DNA of 64,000 nt from positions 40,176,001-40,240,000 of the forward strand of contig NC_091995.1 in NCBI RefSeq assembly GCF_044704955.1, read 5' to 3'. The notes under the pieces are model-generated. The model was not told the DNA's origin. It made no database searches and worked only from the letters and a program-made list of their open reading frames with translations. A program made the position numbers and the translations under genes. Source of the stretch: Pristiophorus japonicus (taxonomy: Eukaryota). Below, piece by piece: positions 30,851-64,000 of this stretch (position 1 is its first letter; each line of letters opens with the position of its first letter).

Positions 30851-30920
30851 ATGGGACAATCTGTAATTCCACAGATCGAAGAAATTTACTATCCTATTCT
30901 TGCACTGGTCGGCATTCCTA
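30851..30920 (+). CDS. GPR139-like GPCR coding exon 1 (MGQSVIPQIEEIYYPILALVGIP, phase 1)
   Basis: ATG, 70 nt, GTAAGT donor; joins exon 2 in frame to complete TM1 (VGIPSNLVAIVIL); homologous 70-nt exon at 52322. Confidence 0.9.
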
Positions 30921-31917
30921 GTAAGTTACTATAATCAGTCATTCCTTGTTTTGTGTGACTGCATTCCTGCTCTTGCTGCTGGTATAATAATATTATCTAT
31001 TGAGATGTACATCTCCAGTTATTGTGAGTGAACTAGTAAAAAACAGTTTAATACAATATAATCATTACGGCATTATATAGATGTAAACACCATTTTGCAT
31101 AATGGTGTCACTCAGTGCGGTGAATGTACTGCGTTGAGTAAAGTTGTTACAGTGGAGCCAGTAGTCATCCCACAAGCCTATTGTTGTATTAGTTATTCAG
31201 CATTATAATTCAACTTCATTTCAATGTGGGGTTTTTGTTAAGCTATTTTATTACAACGATAATAGATTGCATTTATTTAATGCCTTTAATGTAGAAAAAC
31301 ATCCACAGCGCTTACAACATCAATGTTCCCAATACAGACTTTGAAATAATCTTTTATACAGTACACATCTGGTACATCTTCAGGGATTCCTTTTCAAGGT
31401 TGTGAACAGAATGATTGACCGTTGTCTCATATTTCCCTTTAATGTAAATCATTCAATTTGCTTGCAACCTTAGCTTTGTGCACAGTGAATTGTTATCATA
31501 CATTCCTAATATTTGGGAAGGATGAAGGAGGTGGTTATTTTGACTTCTCTTCCATTTATTTTATGAGCCAGGGCAATGCCTTGATAAGGGAAGTTGTGCT
31601 CCTGTTACATTCCTCAAATAGCTAATTACATTATTTGGAAATACTGGGGCATTTCTGGCTACTTTAAATAGTTTAAGGTAGTGCATAAGTTAACAATTGA
31701 ACTTATGTTTTCGGATATTGTTTATTGTTTCTGTAAAATGATATATCTTGTTAATAAGTCAACTGTGAATGTTGGCCCACCCTGTATAATTTTTTAAAAG
31801 AGATGTAATAAACCCCACATTGAGCACAGTATTGATTCAATAACTCATTGATTGTTTGATGTATTGACTGATTTGTGATTTGTTGATTCCTTGACTCTGT
31901 GAGTCACTAATTCCTTG

Positions 31918-32193
31918 AGGCAATGTTGACTTTGGGCAATAAAGTAAAACGAGTGATATTGGATATAATGTCTGTTATACATTTCTCCCAATTTTTATCA
32001 CCTTTCACTTCAATGGAAATGAAAATTGGGGAGAACCGTAAATGGCCCATATTACATTATCGCTCAGTTTTACATCTCTCCCAATTTGTATTTCCATTGA
32101 AGTCAATACAAAGTAAAATGGAAGAGGTGTAAAATGATCTGCCTACTCACTATCATCCCATTACATTATTACACAAAGTCAAGATCCACTCCC
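31918..32193. mobile_element. Fold-back MITE copy (compound) in the GPCR intron
   Basis: TTGACTTTG...CAAAGTCAA termini; internal TCTCCCAATTT/AAATTGGGGAGA and CATTGAAGTCAAT palindromes. Confidence 0.65.
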
Positions 32194-32199
32194 TGGTCA

Positions 32200-33740
32200 T
32201 AACAACAACAACAACTTGGATTTATATAGTGTCTTAAGAGTAGTGAACCTTCCCAACGTGCTTAACAGGAGTATTATGCGTCGAAATCTTTGACACCGAG
32301 CCGCATAAGGAGAAATTAGGGCAGGTGATCAAAAGCTTGGTCAAAGAGGTAGGTTTCAAGAATATCTTCAAGAAGAAAAGAGAGGTATAGAGGCAGAGAG
32401 GTTTAGGAAGGGAATTCCAGAGCTCAGGACCTTGGCAACAGAAGGCACTGCCACCCATGGTTGAGCGATTATAATCAGGAATGCTCTAACAGGGCAGAAT
32501 TAGAGGAGCGCAGATATCTCGGGGGGGTTGCGCGGCTGGAGGAGATTACAGACAAAGGGGGTGTGAGGCCATGGAGGGATTGGAAAACAAGGATGAGAAT
32601 TTTGAAATCGAGGCATTGCTTAACCAGGAGCCGATGTAGGGCACAGGGGTGATGGGTGAGTGGGACATGATGTGAGTTAGAACACGGGCAGTTGAATTTT
32701 GGATGACCTCTAGTTTATGTATTAAAGAATGTGGGAGGCCAGCCAGGAGTGCATTGAAATAGTCAAGTCTAGAGGTAACAAAGGCATGTATGAGGGCTTA
32801 AACAGCAGATGAGCTGAGGCAGAGACTGGCGATGTTACAGAGGTGGAAATAGGCGGTCTTAGTTATGCTGCAGATATGTGGTCGGATGCTCATTTCAGGA
32901 TCAAATAAGACACCAAGGATGTGAACTGTGCAGTTCAGCCTCAGACAGAAGTTGGAGAGAGGGATGGAATCAGTGGCTATGGAATGGAAGTTTGTGGCGG
33001 GGACCGAAAACAATGGCTTCGGTCTTCTCAATATTAGATTTGAGAACATTTCTGCTCATCTAGAACTGGATGTCAGACAAGCAGTCTGACAATTTGGAGA
33101 CCACGGAGGAATCAAGAGAAGTGGTAGTGAGTGAGAGCTGGGTTTCATCAGCGTACATATGGAAACTGACATTGTGTTTACAGATAATGTCGCCAAGGGG
33201 CAACATGTAGATGGAAAATAGGAGGGGGCCAAGGATAGATCCTTGTCAGACACCAGAGATAACAATGTTGGAGTGGGAAGAGAAGCAGTTGCAGGTGATT
33301 CTCTGGCTATGGTTAGATGAATAATAATGGGACCAGGCAAGTGTCGACCCACTCCACTGGATGATGGTGGATAGGCGTTGGAGAAGGATAGAGTGGTCAA
33401 CCTTGTCAAAGGCTGCAGACAAGTCAAGAAGAATGAGGAAGGATAGTTTGCCTTTGTCACTTGAATGTCATTTGTGACTTTGATGAGAGCCATTTTGGTG
33501 CTGTGGCAGGCATGGGAACCGGATTGGAGGGATTCAAACACGGAATTGTGGGAATGATGGGCACGGGTTTGGCAGGCATCAACATGTTCAAGGACTTTGG
33601 AGAGGAAAGGGAGGTTGGAGATAGAGCAGTAGTTTGGAAGGACAGAGGGTTCAAGGGTTGGTTTTGTGATGACGGCAAATTTGAGGGAGAGGGCGACAGT
33701 ATCTGAGGAGAGAACCGTTAACAATGTCAGTTAATATGGG
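32200..33740 (-). mobile_element. L2-clade LINE RT and 3' end with (TTG)n tail, in the GPCR intron
   Basis: KPTLEPSVLPNYCSISNLPFLSKVLE...[14 protein letters not shown]; ITKTAYFHLCNIA; ELWNSLPKPL; (CAA)n-CTTGGATTTATATAG on +. Confidence 0.88.
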
Positions 33741-34104
33741 AGGAAGAAAAGGAAGTTCTTAGTTCACTTCTTGTGTGTTCTTATTAATTGTAAGGATGGC
33801 ACACTAATGTGTTTGATTATCATATTGCCTGTGGAGCACCATGTTACATGGGGAATGACACTCCATTCTACAGCAGTTATTGATGTTTTGAGGTAACATA
33901 AACTGGACGTGGTGTGAAACCGGCTGCTGTTTCACTGTGAGCCGGTTTGGCGCAACCGCCCAAGGCCAATTTCACCCCATTACTGAGTCGAGCGACTGCA
34001 CAAAGGATTTGGAGTTAATTTCGATATAACATATTCTCAATCTGATTATTCCTAGGAATTAAGTGTAATGAGTATGTTTCCCTTCTATTCTCATTTTCTC
34101 GTAG

Positions 34105-35030
34105 GCAATCTAGTGGCGATTGTGATTCTCTCCCGTGGGAAGTGCGGTCTTTCTAAATGTATCACTCGTTACCTGGTGGCCATGGCAGCGGCAGATCTAC
34201 TGGTGATAATATTTGATGTGATATTTTATGAGATTAATGACATTTATTTCCCATATTCATTCTTGGACTACACTCCTGTTTGCAGCCTGATTATCGCCCT
34301 GGTTTTTGCAGCTATTGATTGCTCTGTCTGGTTAACTGTCACCTTCACTTTTGATCGATTTGTCGCCATTTGCTGCCAGAAACTGAGAGCGAAATATTGC
34401 ACCGAAAGAACCGCGGCCATTGTAATAACGATTGTGTTTGGACTGAGCTTTGTGGAAAACATTCCCATTTACTTTGAGAATGAGCACCTGGAAATGATTG
34501 ACAATGTGGCGTGGTTCTGCAGTGTAAAATCAAGCCTCTCTACCTTACCAATATGGGTAGCATACTTCTTCCTTGATATCACCATAACCCCATTCGCACC
34601 ATTTGTGTTGGTTCTGCTGCTCAATGCCCTGACCATCAGGCACATTGTACGGGCAAGTAGAGCGAGGAGGGGACTCCGGGGAAATAACAATAGTGAGGAT
34701 CACAATGATCCAGAGATGGAGAACCGAAGAAGATCGATCATATTACTGCTCGCCATCTCCAGCTGCTTTATACTGTTATGGATGGTTACGTTTGTACATT
34801 TCATATGTACACAATTTACAGACATTCAGTTTATGCTCACAGATTACAATGATCCATTCGCCATCATGGAGCACACAGGATATATGCTTCAGTGTTTGAG
34901 TTCATGCACAAACACATTCATCTACGCAGTGGCTCAAGCTAAATTCAGAGAGGAATTGAAGAATATCGTTAAATATCCCCTGAGTCTAATTGTGAAGTTA
35001 GTGGCTTCAAAAAATTTAAACTCAATGTAG
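34105..35030 (+). CDS. GPR139-like class A GPCR coding exon 2 (TM1 end to C-terminus); spliced protein 331 aa
   Basis: Polypyrimidine-TAG acceptor at 34104; YLVAMAAADLL (TM2), TFDRFVAIC (DRF), ILLLAISSCFILLW (TM6), SSCTNTFIY (TM7), helix 8 KFREEL; no stops. GPR139/142-family-like; orthology not established. Confidence 0.92.
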
Positions 35031-52250: not shown

Positions 52251-53092
52251 GAGGGCCTCATCTGAAGATAACTCATCTTTGTGTCGCTAACACCAACAAG
52301 CTCCGTCGATTTTCATAGAAAATGGGATGTGCAATACTTGCTCAGATAGTAGAAATTTACTACCCTATTCTCGAACTGCTTGGTGTTCCTGGTAAGTCAC
52401 TATTCTCAATTACTGTTTATCTTTATCAGTGTTTAACTGCTCTTTCCACCTATGTGATAATGGCATCCGATCATTCCGAGCTATTGGCTGTATAACTATT
52501 TTTAATGGTATCAGTTAAATGACAAATGCACAAAGTTGCATAATAGTGTTTTAAGTAGATCAAATCATAGAAAGTAAAATTTCCTCTGATCTTGCAAAAT
52601 CAGCATTCTGGTTTTATTCTCCTGCAATTTTGTGGTGAATAGTCCTCTTGTTGGTAGGTTGAAGGGGAGGCAAGACTGGTGCCCACTCACTGGACTGCCA
52701 ACATTAACCCATTGAAGCTTCCTCCATTAACGATGTTAAAAGAGTCCTCATTAACGATGCAATGCTGAGGAGGGGAAACGTAGGTCCTTATTGGTTCCCA
52801 CTACTGGCAGCGATAGTGGGATTCCCATTGGGAAAAGCACGTGCCCAGTCCAATATTGTACATTAAGCAGAGCTGACTAAAAAGAGCACTAACAGTTCAG
52901 GCAGAAGCTTCAGAGCAACAAACACTTAAAATCAACAGGCAAGCAAAGTAACAGCAAACCTCAGCTGCAGCAAATATAACGGCCTGCTCAATGTGCGGTG
53001 GCCTCAGGAAACCAGTCTGCAGATGAAATCGCCCTTATATAGTGCTGGTAACAAATGGGATCGCGTTTGAGTCAAATGTTGCGGACAATGTG

Positions 53093-53511
53093 AGTCCTGT
53101 TGACTTTGGGTGATAATGCAAAATGGGTGATATCGAATTTCCGCTAATTATAGGTCCCGCTCTTTTGTCCCTTCCATCCACTCCAGCGGAAAGGAATATC
53201 GGGCCTTTGGGCGGTGAATCCCATATCGCTAATTTTATACTGTGGCCCAAAGTTAAAGTTACCCCACAATGGAAGGGGGTTCCAGCCCGCTTTAGCCTAT
53301 TTAAAGACGATTGGATGCCTTCTAGGAGGGAGTAGAGGGAACATCGCTGCTCCATTTTACTGAGTCTTTACCGAAAAGGGGCCCTAATTCAGAGCCCCTG
53401 GGGTCAGTTTAACTTTGATCTCAATGAAACGAAGCTTCGGGAGGAGTTTGTCATGGGCGGCCCATCCGATACCATTCCTTTTACACTAGCGCCGAAAGTC
53501 AAACCCGGCCC
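53093..53511. mobile_element. Two fold-back MITE copies (~53093..53265 and ~53399..53511)
   Basis: TTGACTTTGGGTGATAATGCAAAATGGGTGATAT ... ATATCGCTAATTTTATACTGTGGCCCAAAGTTAAAGTTACCCC; GGGGTCAGTTTAACTTT ... AAAGTCAAACCCGGCCC. Confidence 0.65.
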
Positions 53512-54226
53512 TTTGTCTGAACTGAGTGAGAATCCCACCGTGAACAGGTAATGCCCAGCTCGCAGCTTTTATCATTTTCAGGGCGATAAGAAACAACAGT
53601 TTGCCGCTGACTCCCCAGTACTAACCAGTATGGGCCATCACACTGCAGCAAACCCGAAAGGTGTGTATCTGTGTTATGTGCTTCCTGTGCATCGCCGATG
53701 CAGTGCCAGCAATCCGGGTCCTATTGCCAGTTCGTTAATCAATCCTCCAGCTTCTTTTTAGAATTTAAAGCAGCATTGCAAGTGAGCTAACTGTTCACAA
53801 GTGGTTAAAGTGTTTATACAGATCATATCTGAATACCTACTAATTGCAATGTTTTATATTTTATGGCGTACAAGTCTGGTACATAACACGGTTCCCGCTA
53901 CTGAGCTGTGGAACGGGCTGACTCTCGGGCTATATGTGACTGTCCTACAAGCGAGTTTGAAATAATTTGATATTGCGTTCGACCATGAAATTGAACTCAT
54001 GTTGGTCACTATGGGGGTCAAACAGCAGGATACCACCCTGCTCGCTGTTTGACTGCTTAAAATACAGGATTGAATATTAAGCGATGATTAAGATTATAAC
54101 ACCATTGCACGTGTAAAGTGAAATAATGAAGGTTATTTGCAGAAAAGGCACAAAACCTATTTATGCCTGGTTTATATTATCATTGATGTAACCTGTCAAC
54201 AAGCCATGGAATATGTGCGGGTGATG

Positions 54227-54363
54227 GCACTTGATTTAATGTTTATTTTGTCTTCCCCAAAAAGAGTTGTAGAGCTGTTGGGTAAGTGTCTGGAGTGTCC
54301 CCCAGATCAGGGGGGGGGGGGGGGCACTCGATCTAATGTTTATTTTGTACCCCCCAAAAGAGT
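54227..54363 (+). mobile_element. 137-bp insertion with a 13-bp target-site duplication; likely an extreme 3' end of a Tx1/L1-type element
   Basis: TGTGCGGGTGATG at 54214..54226 and 54364..54376; internal ~40-bp direct repeat. Confidence 0.7.
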
Positions 54364-54396
54364 TGTGCGGGTGATGCTATAAAGTATGTGTGTTAC

Positions 54397-54557
54397 ATAG
54401 AAACATAGAAAATAGATGTAGGAGTAGACCATTCGGCCCTTCGAGCCTGCACCACCATTCAATAAGATCATGGCTGATCATTCACCTCAGTACCCCTTTC
54501 CTGCTTTCTCTCCATACTTCTTGATCCCTGTAACCATAAGGGCCATATCTAACTTCC
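54397..54557 (-). mobile_element. Short CR1 3' tail
   Basis: CATAGAAACATAGAAAATAG...CATTCGGCCCTTCGAGCCTGCACC. Confidence 0.85.
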
Positions 54558-55112
54558 CAGATTCGAGTCTAAAGTTGTCTGTATAATTAAAGCCAAATGA
54601 TTGATTAAACTCCAGAAGTTACCCAATTTCACCAGTAACTATTGTTCTCCTTTGATGTAACTCAGGCAATAAAGGGTGTGACATGGATGGATAAATAGTT
54701 TTGTGTCCTCGGGATTTCCACCTGCACGTGGCACAGACAGTGAATGATTTGAGTGAATTATAAATCAGCATTAATTACCACATGACTTTGTTGTTCGAAT
54801 TACTTTTGATATCCATAATCCTGATTTATTTCCCTGCTCCCCCCGCACTATTGCCAACTTGGTGCCCATTGTGATTCTCTCGCGGAGAAGTGCGGTCTCT
54901 CCAAATACATCACTATTTACCTGGTGGTCACGGCAGCGGCTGATCTATTGGTCCTGATATTTGATGTCATGCTGTATCGGATGAATGAAATTTATTTCCT
55001 AGATTTATTCCTGGACTACACTCCGGTCTGAATTTCTTGCTAATTTTTGCTTCTATTGAATGTTCTATCTGGTTAACTGTCGCTTTCACCTTGCCATTTG
55101 TTGCCAATAATT

Positions 55113-55574
55113 GATTTATGAAGATAGGTTGAGTAGGTTGGGCCTATACACACTGCGGTTCAGAAGAATGAGAGGTGGTCTTATCGAAACACATACGGTA
55201 ATGAAGGAGGCTCAACAAGGTGGATGCAGAGAGGATATTTCCACTCATAGGGGAAACTAAAACTAGGGGACATCGTCTCAGAATAAGGGGCCACCCATTT
55301 AAAACTGAGAGAAGGAAGAATTTCTTCTCTCAGAAGGTTTTAAATCTATGGAATTCTCTATCCCAGTGAGCTGTGGAGATTGGGTCATTGAATATATTTA
55401 AGGCGGAGATAGACACATTTTTGAGTGATAAGGGAGTAAAGGGTTATGGGGAGTGGGCGGGGAAGTGGAGCTGAGTCCATGATCAGATCAGCCATGATCT
55501 TATTAAATGGTGGAGCAGGCTCGAGGGGCCAAATGGACTACTCCTGCTCTTATTTCTTACGATCTTGTGTTCCT
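55113..55574 (+). mobile_element. CR1 3' fragment inserted in pseudogene exon 2, TSD ATAATT
   Basis: ATAATT at 55107..55112 and 55575..55580; GPCR sequence resumes after it. Confidence 0.9.
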
Positions 55575-57455
55575 ATAATTAAGAGCCCAATATTACACCA
55601 ACTGCGGTGGTGGTTGTAGTAATATGAGGGCTGAGCTTTTTGGAAAATTTCCCAATTTACTTTACTTTAGAACCTCAAGTAATAAATAACAACATACCGT
55701 GAAATCAAGTCTCTATACTGTACCTAAATGGCTCACATTCTTATGGCTTGATGCAGCTTTAATGCCTTTGATTCAGTTTCTTTTGATTCTGATTATGACC
55801 ATCAGGCACATTCTGCTGACAAGTAGACTGAGGAGGGTCTCGGGAGCAGCCACAGTGACCCAGAAATGGACAATCGCAGGAAATCCGTCATTTTACTGCT
55901 GGTCATATCTGGCAGTTTTATACTGTTATGGACGGTAACTTTTATTCATTATATATGTGTACAAATTAGGGATATTCAATATTTGCACACAGACTACAGT
56001 AATCATTTCACCATCATAGAGCAAACTGGATATATGCTGCAGGATTTGAGTTCCTGCAAAAAACACCATTATTAATGCAATGTCCCAGAGTGAATTCAGA
56101 GAGGACTTAACAAATCTGGTTAAATATTTCTTGGCTCTAATTACTAAGGTAGGGAAATAATTGAAGGGTCTGAGTCTAAGCAAAACTGATTATACAGAAT
56201 TGAGACTCGCTTCCATCTTAATTATGCAACACGGACAGCAGCCGATCAGTGGCCTGTTATTCACCCAACATGAGGTTACTTTCGATAGAGTTTAATGGAG
56301 AGGAATGTCGTCAAGGGGTGTGTAATGAGCAGCCGACCTGCTCCTGCCTGGTTTGTCCCACACCTAAAGGTGAATTTCACCCCGGGCTGGTGGAACTTTC
56401 AGGTCTGGCGGGGACGAAGTCAATGAAAGGACAATCGGGCGGCGGTTATAAACGGCAGCCGAAACAATGAAGCCAGTTTTATTCCCCTCCCTGCGTTCTC
56501 TAAAATATTCCCTAATCTATTTTTAGTTGTGACATTTTAACTTTCAACTTGACTCTCTGGCGAGGATTTTCATCTTGCCGCTGAGGCCTGGAAAGGACTT
56601 TGCAGATTGGTCACCGGTGATAAATCCTCCGTCTTATTCTCATGCCCACTTTAATCCCAGGTTAGCAGCAGAGGGATTACACTGGCCTCGCTCCCTTCAG
56701 TTACACTGAATTTGCTCCGGACCGCTGTATTGGCGATGCTGCAGGTGAAATGTGAATGTGTGGACAGGAGCGGGCTCGGCTGTGTTTCCAGACATTGAAT
56801 AGTGTTTCCATGGCACTGTTTCTGTTCACAAGGGGAGACTGTTTACCTGAGGCCAATGTCAGAGTCAAGCTTTCGGGAGATAAAAGTAAATGGAAAATGA
56901 AATCAAGTTTGTGCGAATAATGTATCAATATTAACAAAACGTATTTTAAAATCCATGGCATGCCTTTATTCTGCGGGGCAGTTCTGTAATATCTAAAGAG
57001 CCAGTTTGTGCAATTATAGATGAGAGTTGACAATATTGCTTCAATGTTAAGCAAGTTAATAATATTGTAATACAGTGACTGAAACATAAGGCATGGGTGA
57101 AATGTTTATGCAAATCACATTGTTTCAGTAACAAAGCAATTGATTCACCATGACTATATCACCGTGTCCCTGGATCCAATGCAAGTCTGGTGTTTGGCCC
57201 TCTCCGGATCTGGTTAAACAACATTGTAATCTAGGGAGTGAAATACAAATGTTAGACATTCCCGAGATGATGGGGCAGAGTACAGTACAGAAAATGAAGT
57301 GACTTGTTCACACTCTTTTCATGGTTCTTCCCCTTACAGGGTGCTCCCCGTTAGCTCCCACAGTGCAGCCCTTACGGTGGCCGTTCCCCAATCCTCTGTA
57401 AATGCTGCTCTGTGGTCAGTTACACAGCAAGAAGTTGGACGCTTCAGTTCCCATT

Positions 57456-58132: not shown

Positions 58133-58445
58133 GAGGTGTGGTCTTTCAGATTAGACTGTCAACTATCTATGCTCTGAGGTGGATGTGAAAGATCCCATGG
58201 CACTATTTCGAAGAAGAGCAAGGGAGTTTTTTTCCTCGTGTCCTGGCCAATATTTATTCCTCAATCAATATCACAAACAGATTATCTGGTCATTATCACA
58301 TTGCTGTTTGTCGGAGCTTGTTGAGCACACGTTGGCTGCCGCGTTTCCTACAATACGACAGTGACTACATTTTCAAAAAGTACTTCATTAGCTGTAAAGC
58401 GCTTTGGGACGTCTTAAGATAATGAAAGGCATTATATAACTATAG
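58133..58445 (+). mobile_element. Deu-domain SINE (SacSINE1/AmnSINE1-related), 5'-truncated
   Basis: AAAGATCCCATGGCACTATTTCGAAGAAGAGCA...GTGTCCTGGCCAATATTTAT...TTGGCTGCCGCGTTTCC...TGTAAAGCGCTTTGGGACGTC. Confidence 0.85.
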
Positions 58446-58557
58446 GTTTTTCTTTATAACAGATATTTAATATTGAAATATAATCCTGGGGCAGGCCACA
58501 AGATTGTCTGTGTAATAATTTTATAAACAAGACTGCAACATAATTCCCTGGCCTTAC

Positions 58558-58661
58558 CTCTCCTCTTCTCCTCCACATATAGATTGAAACCATAACGAAA
58601 GCCAGCGATACCAGTACACACACGACAATCAGCCCCACGTGCTTGTCTTTCTCTACTTTGC
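58558..58661 (-). CDS. MHC class I connecting-peptide/transmembrane exon (GKVEKDKHVGLIVVCVLVSLAFVMVSIYMWRRRGE)
   Basis: AG acceptor in frame with the alpha3 phase-1 donor, hydrophobic stretch followed by basic stop-transfer residues, GTAAGG donor; an alternative in-frame acceptor lies 9 nt downstream. Confidence 0.8.
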
Positions 58662-60518
58662 CTTTCGAAAAATATGAGCAAGGGTTGTATAATTATATGT
58701 GCGGATTGACAGTTTTACATACAACCAATGGAAACCTATGGCCCTGCTCAAGGTCAGTAGGTGGGCTGTTTTATATGTACGAGTTCCCACACCATATAGC
58801 GCACAATGTATGATTTCACTAAGGTGTGACAAGGTTCCTTTTAAAGCCATAAACTTCACTTTTTGTGAAGAACCACAGGTTCAACAAGAACTGGGCAGAC
58901 TGTAAAGGTAACTGCGGTTGGAGGGGAAGGCGGTGGGGGGGTTGGGGGGGGGGGGGGGTGCGGTAGATGCATTGGCTGCGAAGCATGGTTTCCAGAGTGA
59001 TCAGGGCTGGGCCAGCAAAATAAATGAGATGATTGGAGTCCAGTGGAAAAGGGTTGTGTTCATGGTGCCCAGCGAGGCAGGGAGAAGGCACGCTGTTCCC
59101 TCCCCCCACGGATTGCTGGGTGAGGGGATATAAGTGGGAAAGTGGCAGAGGCCTGTGTCTGTGCGGTCTGATGAAAGGGGCAATATGAGGGGTAAGTACT
59201 GGCAGTTGAATTGTTGATGGCCACTATGCCAGCTCCCAGGGCTGGGGGATCAAGCTTCTGACTGTTCCCACAGGTCCATGGGATGGGAGGGTGGTAATGG
59301 TGCAAGTTTGCAGCTCATGAGAATTGTAAATAACCAAATTATATACATAAAAGTTTACACGTAATTCAAACTGTTAAATGCTTACCTTTTTATCAATAGT
59401 AACATGGCTGCTGTATCAATTTCTAGCTTATTCTGTGGAGTTTCCCACCCAGCTCTACTTTGTGCAGTCCCAACCTTCATTCTTGCTGCAGTTTCTTGCT
59501 TTCTGGGCAAAGCCCTCACCCGCCAACTTCCCTGCCTACAGCTTCCTTTGAACTTCGAACCCTAAGGACTCGCCTCTGGACCCCTGCCATCAGGCCACAT
59601 AATTTTATCACCCCTCCCCCTCACTGTGCTACATTTTAATGAGCTTTCCCCACAACAATTCCCCACTCCTCCTCTAACATCACAAAGTGACCTGTCCCCT
59701 CAGTCCCTACCAGCGCAAAGAGACAACAGAAACAAAAACACACTGAAGCTGAGAGTGAAATAGCTTAGCACAGAGCAAACGTTCAAGCTCAGAAACTGAG
59801 CAGCTCCAGAACCACGGTGAAAGGGAACAATGAGAAAGCAGAAACAAACAGTGAAGCAACAAGCATGAATGATGAATGTAGGTTAATGTAGGTTCATCCA
59901 TTCTCTAACCCAGATAGCCTATGAAAGAGATGTGTTTGCTATCTAACTCTGAGATTGTGTGTGTGTGTATGTGTGTGTGTGTGAGAGAGGTGTGAGGGGA
60001 GGGGGGGCATGGAGAGAGACGTATAGAGTGGAATTAGACAGTAAGAAGCAATGAGAAAGATATAGAGAAAGCAAGCTTAAAAAGTACACAAGGGGTGGGG
60101 GGGGGTTGGGTGCAGATTATGGAAGAGTCAGAAGATAACAGAAATTTTCTAAAAGAGCAAGAATGAGAAACAGTCACAGGCAGCCTGCAAGTCCAGAGAT
60201 ACCCAAAGTAATGTATAAAGAAACAGGCAGAAAGAGCAAAAGTTACCCACAAGAAAATACGGTTACAAGGAGTGGAAGAATTTAATTTTCCTGTTCTTGG
60301 CTATCAGCAACAGAACAGAAGACCAAATAGTAACAACTAAAAATCACTGGGAGACAGAATATTCGGTTCATTTCTAGAGAAATGGAATAGAAAAGCAGGG
60401 AGGCAATGGGCAATTTGGTTCAGTCATGCATTTAATTGATCTCTTTCTGCTCTCTCTCCCTGTATGGGATGTTTGTGATTATTGATGGATTGTTCAGTGT
60501 TGCTGCTCATGTCCTTAC

Positions 60519-60785
60519 CCCAGGGGACAGTCTTCCCACCTGACAAGCTGCTGTGTTCAATATGACAGGAATATTGTTTCCCATCATACGGATCAAATTC
60601 AAGGCTTGTCGTTAGCTGATACGTCCCATCTTCATTGGGTAATACTCCAGTAGATTTGGTCTCAGGGGCATGTTCTCCATTCTTCAACCAGGTCACATTG
60701 ATGGACTGCGGGTAAAATCCAAGCACAATGCAGTGGAGAAACCAACGATCACCAGCCCTGGCAACAACTGAGACCTCAGGGGAAA
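60519..60785 (-). CDS. MHC class I alpha3 (Ig C1-set) exon, 267 nt
   Basis: PEVSV...LHCIVLGFYPQSINVTWLKNG...LPNEDGTYQL...YSCHIEHSSL...VPW; TAG/GTAAG splice sites, phase 1-1. Confidence 0.93.
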
Positions 60786-60850
60786 CTACATGATAGAATG
60801 ACAATTATTTTCAACTTCAATAAAAGTCGCACATTTCACAATTAATTAAA

Positions 60851-60991
60851 GGGGTTTATTTAAACCTTTGCCGCTAGTGTAAAATGGGCAATATCAGATC
60901 GGCCGCCTGTCAGAGGATAGGGTGAGGTGTGTAATGGAAGCTGATCCGATATCGCCCATTGTACAATATCGCCAAACTTTAAAATTACCCC
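60851..60991. mobile_element. Fold-back MITE filling most of the 225-bp alpha2-alpha3 intron
   Basis: ~55-bp imperfect inverted arms: GGGGTTTATTTAAACCTTTGCCGCTAGTGTAAAATGGGCAATATCAGATC / GATCCGATATCGCCCATTGTACAATATCGCCAAACTTTAAAATTACCCC. Confidence 0.8.
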
Positions 60992-61010
60992 CAGGTTGTT
61001 CTGAACTTAC

Positions 61011-61286
61011 CTTTTCTGGTTAGTGATACATTTCCAATTGAATAGTATGCCTTCCATAATTCCACACAGTCCTTTTCTAACAAGCTCTTGAAGTAATGGT
61101 TCATCATTGTTTCCTTATCCCATTTCGCTTTGAAGGTCTGAGCTAATGGATCATGTACAGTCCAAACCAATTTGTCTTTATCAAAACTAAATGCGTATCT
61201 TCCATCAAAAGCTAACTTCAGAAGCCCTCTACTAGGATTGGCGTCATTCAGCTCACAGCCAAACAGTCCTTGAATGTAATGAGTAC
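61011..61286 (-). CDS. MHC class I alpha2 exon, 276 nt, non-classical
   Basis: (G)THYIQGLFGCELNDANPSRGLLKLAFDGRYAFSFDKDKLVWTVHDPLAQTFKAKWDKETMMNHYFKSLLEKDCVELWKAYYSIGNVSLTRK; both Cys, FDG, W133, KW; TAG/GTAAGT, phase 1-1. Confidence 0.93.
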
Positions 61287-61609
61287 CTAGAACAGTAATT
61301 CAACCAATCAATGGCTACATAATTATCGCATCTATTCACACCAAGTCTGAGAATTTCAGCTATTTTCTCGTCACTTCACATCCAGTCACTCTTTCCATTA
61401 CTAAGGGTAGAAATGGAATTTAGTATCTGAAACAAGCATCATCACACAGACATACTTACAGCACTGAAAGAGAACAATTGGCACCAAAGTTAAACTGCAA
61501 CTGCCGGTTAATATTCTTGCTATAATAAGTGCTCAGGACTGCATGCAAAACCCCAACAGTGTCCTGACCAAAGTCTTCTTTGAGGCCTTGATGATATATG
61601 TTATGCCCC

Positions 61610-61833
61610 TATGATTTTAAAAAAGCGGATGGAGTGAAAGTGGTCTTTGCCAGTTGTGTGAAATGGGTTCAGAGTGGATCAGAAGCCCGGTTTACACTCC
61701 ACCCATTTTTCACAGATGTAAAGTGGGCTGTCAATTCACTGTGGCCCCAATGGAAGGGAAGATTGGGCAGATTGTGTAATGGGTGACCAATCCAAAATCA
61801 CTAATTTTACACTTAACAAAAGTTAAAATGATC
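61610..61833. mobile_element. Degenerate fold-back MITE copy
   Basis: TGTGAAATGGG...CCCATTTTTCACA; end TTTTACACTTAACAAAAGTTAAAATGATCCC. Confidence 0.5.
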
Positions 61834-61907
61834 CCTCATCTATACAACGCCACAGGAAATTGAGCAGAAAATTCAAAAATGTTACATCTTCTTGTCCACA
61901 AATAGAT

Positions 61908-62092
61908 CCCACCGGTCTGGGCCCCGGGCATTGGTCCTTTAATTCCCCTGGTCTGGGCCCTGGTCCTTTAATCCCCACCGGTCTGGGCCCCGGGCACTGG
62001 TCCTTTAATTCCCCTGGTCTGGGCCCTGGTCCTTTAATCCCCACCAGTCTGGGCCCCGGGCACTGGTCCTTTAATCTCCACCAGTCTGGGCC
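61908..62092. repeat. Short VNTR, alternating 37- and 29-bp units (66-bp period), core GGTCTGGGCCC...TGGTCCTTTAAT
   Basis: Units start at 61908, 61945, 61974, 62011, 62040. Confidence 0.9.
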
Positions 62093-62404
62093 GGTGTCCA
62101 GACCGGTGTCATATTTCTGTTACATTTGTGTTAACATTTCCTTTATAATTTCCTGTATCAACCTTTATGTTTGAAGCAGCCACTGTAAGCTGATCATGCT
62201 GTAATTATACTCTCCAACCACTGTCGAACTGCCTTGCTTTTCCCAGAGAAACTGCTGTATCTACTTCCCAAATTGAATAAATGTTGCTATTTAACTATTA
62301 ATCTACTTATATTGTATTAGAAATGTTACGTACTGCCTGTCCACACAATCTTACTTCTTTTGTCACATTGGTTATCAATTTTGCCCCATTATCAATTCCT
62401 ATGA

Positions 62405-62755
62405 ATTAAGGACTTGGATAGAGTGAATACGGAGAAACTGTTTCCCGTGGCAAAGTTTGATAACCAGAGGACGCAGATTTAAGATAATTGGAAAAAGAAC
62501 CAGAGGCGACATGAGGAGATTTTTTTATGCAACAAATTGTTGTGATCTGGAATGCAATGCTTGAAAGTGCGCTGGAAGCAGATTTAATAGCGACTTTCAA
62601 AAAGGAATTGGATAAATACTTCAAGGGGAATATTTTGCAGTGCTATGGGTAAAGGGCAGAGGAGTGAGTCTAATTGGATAGCTCTTTAAAAGACTCGGAT
62701 CAGGCATGATGGGTCAAATGGCCTCTTTCTGTGCTATATCATTCTATGATTCTAG
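62405..62755 (+). mobile_element. CR1 3' fragment
   Basis: TTGTGATCTGGAATGCAATGCTTG; tail ATTCTATGATTCTA. Confidence 0.8.
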
Positions 62756-62834
62756 CCAACGTTAACAGGCTGTAATTGCACCCTTCCTCCAGTAGTGGCG
62801 CTGTAATGCCTCAGTTTTATATTGCCCAACTCTT

Positions 62835-64000
62835 CATAGAATCATAGAATGGTTACTTTTAAAACCTGTGATTGAGGCTGCCTTCACAACCGTTTCAGGC
62901 AGTGCATTCCAGATCCTAACAACTCACTGCGCAAATAAGATTTTTTTTCTTATGCTGCCTTTGGTTCTTTTATCTGTGTCCTCTGGTTATCGACATTACT
63001 GCCAATGGTAACAGTTTCTCTCTATCTACTTTGTCCAAACCCTCATGATTTTGAACACCTCTATCAAATTTCCTCTCAATCTTCTCTGCTCTAAGGAGAA
63101 CAACCCCAGCTTTTCCAGTCTATCCACGTAACTGAAGTCCCTCATTCCTGGAATAATTCTCATCAATCTTTTCTACACCCTCTCTAAGGCCTTCACATCC
63201 CTCCTAAAGTGCGGTGCCCAGAATTGGACACAATATTCCAACTGAGCCCGAACCAGTGCATTATTCAGGTTCATCATAATTTCCAAGCTTTTGTACTCTA
63301 TTACCTCTATTCATAAAGCCCAGGATTCCGTAAGCATTTTAAATGCTTTCTCAACCTGTCCTGCCACCTTCAATGATTTGTGCACATATACCCCTAAGTC
63401 TCTCTGTTCATGCACCCCCTTTAGGATTGTACCCTTTAGTTTATATATCCTCTCCTCATTCTTTCTACCAAAATGTATCAATTCACACTTTTCTGCATTA
63501 AATTTCAACTGCCACATTTCCGCCCATTCCACCTGCCTGTCTATGTCTTGAAATTTATCACTATCCTTCTCATTTTTAACTATACTTCCAAGTTTTGTGT
63601 CATCTGTAAATTTGTAAATTGTGCTCTGTACACCCACATCAAAGTAATTAATATATATCAAGAAAAGCAGTGGTCCTAGTACTGACCCCTGGGGAACACT
63701 ACTGTATACCTTCCTTCAGTCCGAAAAACAACCGTTCACTACTACTCTCTGTTTCCTGTCACTTAGCCAATTTCAAATCATATGCTACCACTGTCCCTTT
63801 ATTCCATGGTCTTCAACTTAGCTGGCAAGCCTATTATGTGTCACTTTGTCGAACACATTTTGGAAATCCATGTGCACCACGTCAAACACAATGCCTTCAT
63901 CAACCCTCTCTGTTACTTCATCAAAAAACTCGATCAATTTGGTTAGAAATGATTTGCCTTGAACAAATCCATACTGGCTTTCCTTAAGTAATCCACATTT
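62835..64000 (-). mobile_element. CR1 RT to 3' end, runs off the window end
   Basis: IYINYFD...KFTDDTKLG...LKFNAEKCELIHFG; CATAGAATCATAGAAT tail. Confidence 0.9.

What the first reader, a model, noticed from the sequence alone, without database searches (positions are those of the whole stretch)
58558..61286. Class I heavy chain with lost peptide-anchoring residues and a hydrophobic groove floor (possible lipid/CD1-like ligand)
Hand alignment to HLA-A2 numbering: the conserved peptide-terminus anchors Y123, T143 and Y159 become A, F and L; W167 becomes L; K146, W147 and Y171 are kept. Floor positions 97/99/114/116 read G/F/L/L, and the beta2m-contact positions Q115 and D122 become K and Y. 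Frames and splice sites are intact, so the gene looks functional. Inference: a non-classical molecule binding a non-peptide or hydrophobic ligand. It may belong to a named shark lineage (UBA-UFA) or to a new one.
Basis: partly seen in the sequence, partly recalled or inferred. Interest (0 to 1): 0.7.

Follow-up and report, generated by a model that had tools for sequence, protein, structure and literature searches.

The report
Shark UGA gene lost sorting tail
This is a spliced sawshark copy of UGA, an already named and crystallised CD1-like immune gene that likely displays lipids, and a one-base deletion has erased the short tail signal that would route it through endosomes in other sharks and rays.

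Summary
The best solved match is nurse shark UGA (PDB 9CH4, 71% identical, E 1e-138 against 1e-54 for the next), which was crystallised with beta2m. Alpha1 lies 5 kb beyond the window and is intact: Y7 and Y59 are kept, position 84 is Q. Spliced contigs from three samples of one study show transcription. 'Frames and splice sites intact' holds only for the ectodomain. The TM acceptor has moved 3 nt, and a 1-nt deletion at the end of the TM exon puts the conserved D-Y-N-V-V-stop tail out of frame. Orthologs in 17 of 18 other species carry a YxxPhi motif there. Of six alpha1-alpha3 UGA copies found in this assembly, only this one has every exon in frame at its standard splice sites. Likely function: lipid display with beta2m, without tyrosine-based endosomal sorting. 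Known kind with a modest twist; ligand and trafficking are untested.

The parts
61287..64000 (-). Alpha1-alpha2 intron, running off the window's end. Beyond the window lie the open alpha1 exon (G000:C19:40244999-40245259; Y7, Y59, Q84, N86 sequon; Y67 unique among the UGA rows compared) and a 17-codon leader exon (G000:C19:40279234-40279285), 34 kb further upstream
   Evidence: alpha1 joined to alpha2 in contigs of X5 and X6; the leader splice was not seen in contigs
61011..61286 (-). Alpha2 exon with the UGA groove: G97 F99 L114 K115 L116 Y122 A123 F143 K146 W147 L159 L167 Y171
60519..60785 (-). Alpha3 (C1-set) exon, open
   Evidence: joined to alpha2 in X5
58662..58666 (-). Changed TM acceptor: AG of the paralogues is GA at 58666-58665; the AG at 58663-58662 is used instead, dropping one codon (Glu)
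   Evidence: alignment with 4 paralogues; joint in 3 of 3 spliced runs, absent from DNA run X3
58558..58661 (-). Connecting/TM exon, 104 nt; 1 nt shorter than in three paralogues near 58564/58563, so it ends in phase 0 instead of phase 1
   Evidence: DNA contig 58414-58637 and spliced contigs match the assembly with no gap
57159..57230 (-). Cytoplasmic exon read in the shifted frame: 23 new residues and a stop, with no tyrosine and no canonical acidic dileucine motif
   Evidence: TM-to-57230 join in X5 and X6 contigs
57214..57230 (-). Ancestral tail D-Y-N-V-V-stop, still present letter for letter but out of frame
   Evidence: same 17 nt in 4 of 5 paralogues, first base differs in the fifth; same tail in basking shark P0009
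56965..57158 (-). 3' UTR with AATAAA at 56970-56965
   Evidence: spliced-run contigs begin at 56974-56999, a weak hint only

Best explanation
This is a spliced copy of the shark and ray non-classical MHC class I gene UGA whose protein likely pairs with beta2-microglobulin and likely carries lipid in its groove, and whose tail has lost, through a one-base deletion, the tyrosine motif that would route it through endosomes. Shown here: lineage, exon structure, splicing of alpha1 to the last exon, the groove residues, the deletion, and the lesions in the five other full-ectodomain copies found. Taken from the ortholog: beta2m pairing (9CH4 holds both chains) and lipid binding (review, personal communication). 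Inferred: the heavy chain would load endogenous lipid in the ER, reach the surface and be seen by innate-like T cells; without YxxPhi it would bind AP-2/AP-3 poorly, stay at the surface or in early recycling endosomes as CD1a does, and sample fewer lysosomal lipids. It is likely the only working UGA in this assembly.
For: 9CH4, titled shark nonclassical class I UGA, is the top hit by sequence (E 1e-138, next 1e-54) and by fold (71% identity; Z 19.1, rmsd 6.6, 241 aligned). Published UGA rows match 9CH4 and P0010. Alpha2 tree: UGA clade 99/98. 9CH4 has three beta2m chains and shares K115/Y122. Groove: 31 of 38 positions apolar or aromatic, 3 charged, mean hydropathy 0.69, against -0.19 to 0.28 for 4 classical-type copies in this genome. 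Spliced contigs: alpha1-alpha2 in 2 of 3 runs, alpha3-TM in 3 of 3, TM-tail in 2 of 3. dN/dS 0.31-0.52 against 5 paralogues over alpha1-alpha2. YxxPhi after the basic stop-transfer residues in 17 of 18 other species. CD1d uses YxxPhi and AP-3, and a CD1a tail changes presentation (PMC2194227 passages).
Against: No ligand data for this protein; the lipid claim for UGA rests on one review passage citing personal communication. Y7, Y59, K146, W147 and Y171 are kept. The hydropathy gap is modest: skate UGA scores 0.18, inside the classical-type range. That the UGA motif sorts anything is untested; whale shark has YSLT and one sawfish copy stops before the motif. The leader-alpha1 splice over 34 kb was not seen. 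Two lesions in one small exon and dN/dS up to 0.52 also fit relaxed selection. All spliced runs come from one study and are not labelled RNA. Copy counts are lower bounds, and copy c45.84 has a database model that restores its frame by another donor (P0003).
Confidence: 0.62

Rival explanations
1. A UGA copy in early decay: still transcribed, but the acceptor change and tail frameshift are the first steps to a pseudogene, as in its five sister copies, and the protein no longer matters.
For: The 5 other full-ectodomain copies each carry a lesion. Two lesions sit in one 104-nt exon. The old tail codons are unchanged, so the frameshift may be recent. dN/dS 0.31-0.52.
Against: Both lesions leave leader, ectodomain and TM helix in frame. 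Groove residues shared by the lineage are kept. Contigs of the three spliced runs over alpha3 match this copy with no paralogue letters, while DNA run X3 shows other letters there (contigs show presence, not absence). The one variant seen in alpha1 is synonymous.
Confidence: 0.18
2. The groove holds a lipopeptide, acylated amino acid or small metabolite rather than a two-chain lipid, as chicken YF1 or MR1 do.
For: Y7, Y59, Y171, K146, W147 are kept. After 9CH4, YF1 and MR1 are among the next structural neighbours, tied at Z about 16.5-16.9. This copy has bulky F24, Y63 and Y67, where nurse shark UGA has I, C and E.
Against: MR1's ligand lysine (K43, numbering recalled) aligns with T. The review reports CD1d-like lipids for UFA/UGA. 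Tied Z values show only a shared fold.
Confidence: 0.1
3. The tail change is a private or segregating allele; other sawsharks keep the tyrosine tail, so the species has ordinary UGA.
For: Only one assembly and one transcript study (three samples) were seen; whether those samples are different animals is unknown.
Against: All 3 spliced runs and DNA run X3 carry the short exon with no gap listed. X5 has a synonymous alpha1 letter absent from X6 and X1, a weak hint that more than one haplotype was sampled.
Confidence: 0.06
4. A non-immune role (lipid carrier or receptor, like ZAG, HFE or FcRn), with the tail motif serving uptake instead of antigen presentation.
For: ZAG and HFE are among the fold neighbours. 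No T cell restricted by UGA turned up in the papers read.
Against: It lies on the MHC contig with beta2m, class II, UDA and UFA; the review treats UGA as CD1-like.
Confidence: 0.04

Closest known systems
Nurse shark UGA (PDB 9CH4, released 2026-03-18; Gcirratum_UGA in supplement file 10 of PMC10751288)
   Same: 71% identical over 268 residues without gaps; same G97, F99, L114, K115, Y122, F143, L159, L167, and kept Y7, Y59, K146, W147, Y171.
   Different: F24/Y63/Y67/L116/A123/Q84 here against I/C/E/F/I/K. 9CH4 has no tail; orthologs in other sharks end in YxxPhi, this copy does not.
Elasmobranch UFA (PDB 8GM8; second CD1-like lineage)
   Same: Non-classical, MHC-linked, reported lipid binder; entry 8GM8 holds beta2m (that 8GM8 is UFA comes from scan notes).
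   Different: A separate gene in this genome at C19 53.5 Mb, only 31% (alpha1) and 23% (alpha2) identical.
Mammalian CD1b/c/d versus CD1a
   Same: Hydrophobic groove, beta2m partner, short basic tail with YxxPhi in the orthologs; CD1d sorts by YxxPhi and AP-3 (PMC2194227).
   Different: Orthology with CD1 is not shown; UGA keeps several classical anchors. This copy resembles CD1a in lacking the motif (CD1a's lack is recalled), but by an independent frameshift.
Classical shark UAA (PDB 6LUP)
   Same: Class I fold, Y7, Y59, K146, W147, Y171, N86 sequon.
   Different: 36% identity; R84, Y/F123, T143, Y159, W167 replaced; separate clade.
Unnamed sister lineage (Heptranchias P0017; genome copies L007, L008, L010)
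   Same: G97, K115, L159, hydrophobic groove; neighbouring clade.
   Different: 47% ectodomain identity; keeps D122 and W167; longer tail.

Membership tests
Elasmobranch UGA | Closest named sequence in all three domains is UGA | tested here: met
   9CH4 is the top PDB hit for alpha2 (E 4.5e-42, next 1.6e-14), alpha3 and the whole chain; title
Elasmobranch UGA | Groups with named UGA sequences in a tree | tested here: met
   Alpha2 tree of 33 rows: clade of 21 with little skate UGA, support 99/98. 9CH4, UFA, CD1 and MR1 were not in the tree; alpha2 only
Elasmobranch UGA | Linked to the MHC | tested here: met
   Same contig C19 as UDA-like, UFA-like, beta2m and class II genes, though 13-16 Mb from them
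Elasmobranch UGA | Single or low copy (descriptive, from the review) | tested here: inconclusive
   6 alpha1-alpha3 copies plus fragments, one without lesion in the ectodomain or leader; Rhinoraja also has 10 clustered models
Elasmobranch UGA | Binds lipid | not testable with these tools
   Only groove composition and a review passage
Elasmobranch UGA | Pairs with beta2m | not tested
   The ortholog's crystal holds beta2m; no complex was modelled for this protein
Elasmobranch UFA | Sequence grouping with UFA | tested here: not met
   31% and 23% identity to the genome's UFA-like exons, which resemble the published UFA rows
Classical class Ia (UAA) | Y7, Y59, Y171 and K146, W147 | tested here: met
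Classical class Ia (UAA) | R84, T143, Y159 (and W167) | tested here: not met
   Q84, F143, L159, L167
CD1 proper | Orthology to tetrapod CD1 | tested here: inconclusive
   No tree with CD1 was built; PMC10751288 calls orthology hard to assess even for UFA
CD1b/c/d-type routing (works-like test) | YxxPhi motif in the cytoplasmic tail | tested here: not met
   No tyrosine in the spliced tail; present in orthologs of 17 of 18 species
MR1 | Lysine 43 for Schiff-base ligands (numbering recalled) | tested here: not met
   Aligns with T

The most novel reading that the evidence does not exclude
After a burst of UGA duplication and decay, the sawshark kept one working CD1-like UGA, and that one has lost a tyrosine sorting motif kept across sharks and rays: a CD1a-like, surface and early-endosome lipid presenter made by a one-base frameshift, and a natural test of whether shark CD1-like molecules depend on endosomal routing.
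Probability: 0.4. Interest if true: 0.5.

Novelty: new variant of a known kind. Interest (0 to 1): 0.33.

Why it matters
What adds something is the tail. A YxxPhi motif kept in 17 of 18 other elasmobranch species suggests that UGA is routed through endosomes like CD1b/c/d, which would push that route back to early jawed vertebrates. The sawshark's best-preserved, transcribed copy lacks it, giving a natural with-and-without pair for a simple trafficking assay. I found no paper on the UGA tail or on sawshark UGA in the held library, but no primary UFA/UGA paper turned up there and one may cover the motif, and an earlier scan note already mentions it in another genome.

Tried and rejected
UFA was my first guess; rejected by the 9CH4 title and by a separate UFA-like gene at 23-31% identity. 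New lineage: rejected. Alpha1 missing or broken: rejected. Assembly error for the 1-nt deletion: rejected, since DNA run X3 and spliced runs X5-X7 match with no gap. Spliced contigs from a retrocopy: unlikely, as no identical second copy appeared in the alpha2 or alpha3 genome searches and the alpha3-TM joint has depth 0 in X3. No RNA holder listed: none of the 7 runs is on record as RNA; 5 of 7 were laid, X2 and X4 were not. A splice form restoring Y-N-V-V was not seen, but contigs drop rare forms. The AlphaFold model was poor (mean pLDDT 64, pTM 0.50), so no pocket volume was computed. No complex model with beta2m was obtained. CD1 chains are not among the listed top fold matches, which excludes nothing. 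The neighbouring GPR139-like gene does not single out this locus: all six copies have one nearby. A search for '9CH4' gave only unrelated papers. The UDA and UEA papers (PMC7002201, PMC8454915) are not held. PMC13337447 passages had nothing on UGA.

Full report
What is there. The finding covers three exons of an MHC class I heavy-chain gene on the minus strand: alpha2 61286-61011, alpha3 60785-60519 and TM 58661-58558. The window is G000:C19:40176001-40240000. Fetching the next 80 kb gave the alpha1 exon 5 kb beyond the window's end (C19:40244999-40245259) and a 17-codon leader 34 kb further up (C19:40279234-40279285). With a last exon at 57230, six exons spell a 343-residue protein identical to database entry P0001, labelled Pristiophorus japonicus. 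Pfam gives MHC_I and C1-set above their cut-offs.

The residue calls. The alpha2 exon aligns without gaps to PDB 9CH4, whose sequence matches the nurse shark UGA rows printed beside HLA-A2 in supplement file 10 of PMC10751288 (parts 97 and 98 read). Alpha1 keeps Y7 and Y59 and has Q84. Over 38 groove-facing positions (list recalled) the protein has 31 apolar or aromatic residues (Gly and Cys counted) and 3 charged ones, mean hydropathy 0.69; the other 16 UGA rows range 0.18-0.91 and four classical-type copies from this genome -0.19 to 0.28. The groove is greasy, but the ranges overlap at the low end.

Lineage. 9CH4 is titled 'Crystal structure of shark nonclassical MHC CLASS I, UGA' and is the best match by sequence (E 1e-138, next 1.3e-54) and by fold (71% identity; Z 19.1, rmsd 6.6, 241 aligned on a weak model). 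In an alpha2 tree of 33 rows the exon sits in a clade of 21 with little skate UGA (support 99/98), apart from the UAA-type, UDA-like and UCA-like exons of this genome (the C20 fragment and two decayed off-contig hits were left out, and one of nine C3 copies was used). UFA is a different gene at C19 53.5 Mb with 31% and 23% identity. G97, F99, L114, K115 and L159 are invariant in the 17 UGA rows, so these are lineage marks and not a quirk of this copy. 9CH4 also carries K115 and Y122 and contains three beta2m chains, so those changes are compatible with beta2m binding. A 2025 review (PMC12562908, passages) calls UFA and UGA CD1-like, single or low copy, with crystal and mass-spectrometry evidence for CD1d-like lipids, citing personal communication. 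I found no primary paper in the held library.

Transcription. Seven runs hold the stretch; none is on record as RNA. Three of them (X5-X7, three samples, one study) behave as RNA: their contigs cover exons and join them at GT-AG sites. Alpha1-alpha2 is joined in 2 of 3, alpha2-alpha3 in 1 of 3, alpha3-TM in 3 of 3 (X5 with only 30 letters on one side), and TM to 57230 in 2 of 3, with no differences from the assembly in these window exons; DNA run X3 shows no alpha3-TM joint. X5 has one synonymous difference in alpha1. The leader splice was not covered.

Four paralogues keep a TM exon. All four have the acceptor CAG followed by AAG; this copy has CGA and splices at the AAG, losing one codon. 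At the 3' end of the exon this copy is one base shorter than three of them. Their phase-1 junction reads the next exon as D-Y-N-V-V-stop (V-Y-N-V-V in one); here the junction is phase 0 and yields 23 unrelated residues with no tyrosine and no canonical acidic dileucine. DNA run X3 and all three spliced runs agree with the assembly there. Among orthologs from 18 other shark and ray species, 17 have at least one annotated form with YxxPhi right after the basic stop-transfer residues (YNAV, YNVI, YNIV, YNVV, YNTV, YSVV, YSFV, YQTI, YQNI, YENI, YESI); the whale shark has YSLT, and several species also have annotated forms without it.

The other copies. The alpha2 search found six copies at 80-100% on C19 and a broken fragment on C20; further partial 3' fragments exist. 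Copies at 46.28, 47.46 and 51.51 Mb share a 1-nt deletion inside alpha3; 47.46 has a second deletion and an extra TM base, and 51.51 lacks the TM exon; 45.84 lacks one base at the start of alpha3, though its database model P0003 restores the frame with another donor. The 47.18 copy is open and has the ancestral tail phase, but no leader exon was found genome-wide (5 hits, none assignable to it) or in 95 kb upstream. So the window's copy is the only one found with all exons in frame at standard sites. dN/dS against the five others is 0.31-0.52 over alpha1-alpha2. These counts are lower bounds.

Mechanism. Shown: a spliced UGA mRNA with an open ectodomain, a TM helix and a replaced tail. From the ortholog: beta2m pairing and probable lipid cargo. 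Inferred: ordinary UGA would be taken up by its YxxPhi through adaptor complexes and sample endosomal lipids, as CD1d does with AP-3; swapping in a CD1a tail changes which glycolipids CD1d presents (PMC2194227, passages). The sawshark protein would then stay mostly at the surface or in early endosomes. I put this whole reading at about 0.6; early decay, a lipopeptide or metabolite ligand, a private allele and a non-immune role share the rest.

Verdict. The unreported-looking part is the loss of a conserved sorting motif in what looks like the species' only intact copy (not found; no primary UGA paper was found and the UDA and UEA papers were not available). An earlier unchecked scan note had already seen the UGA tail signal in another genome; I had noted the motif before that look-up. 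Interest 0.33.

Noticed in passing
L012-L020 (G000:C3:316.6-319.3 Mb): At least nine near-identical intronless class I genes (leader to tail in one frame; L013 is frameshifted), off the MHC contig, grouping with UAA-type exons. An earlier scan note describes them as retrocopies.
   Followed up: partly
L007, L008, L010 (G000:C19 48.54, 44.97, 49.66 Mb): Three copies of an unnamed sister lineage of UGA (like Heptranchias P0017) with a very hydrophobic groove, interspersed with the UGA copies; L007 has a stop in alpha2, the 49.66 copy a stop in alpha3.
   Followed up: partly
L055:2759-3034 (G000:C19 about 40.2804-40.2807 Mb): Orphan, diverged alpha1-like exon (38% to this gene's alpha1) with an open frame and apparent splice sites, 1.1 kb upstream of the leader; not seen beside the four other leader copies.
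   Followed up: partly
L083, L084 (G000:C19 55.008 and 54.870 Mb): Two beta2-microglobulin exons differing by one residue, both on the plus strand: a duplicated beta2m or an assembly duplicate.
   Followed up: no
window 30851-35027 and 52322-56124 (+): An intact GPR139-like 7TM gene and a decayed one, facing the UGA gene. Every UGA copy has such a neighbour, and the little skate UGA model is fused to one by annotation.
   Followed up: partly
G000 contigs C2167, C30, C2056, C27, C23: Seven 80-83% copies of the UGA last exon, 3' UTR and some upstream intron on other contigs, so not simple processed copies.
   Followed up: no
window 61950-62110: Short tandem repeat in the alpha1-alpha2 intron, and a decayed CR1-type reverse transcriptase at about 63100-64000 (identification of the element recalled).
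   Followed up: no
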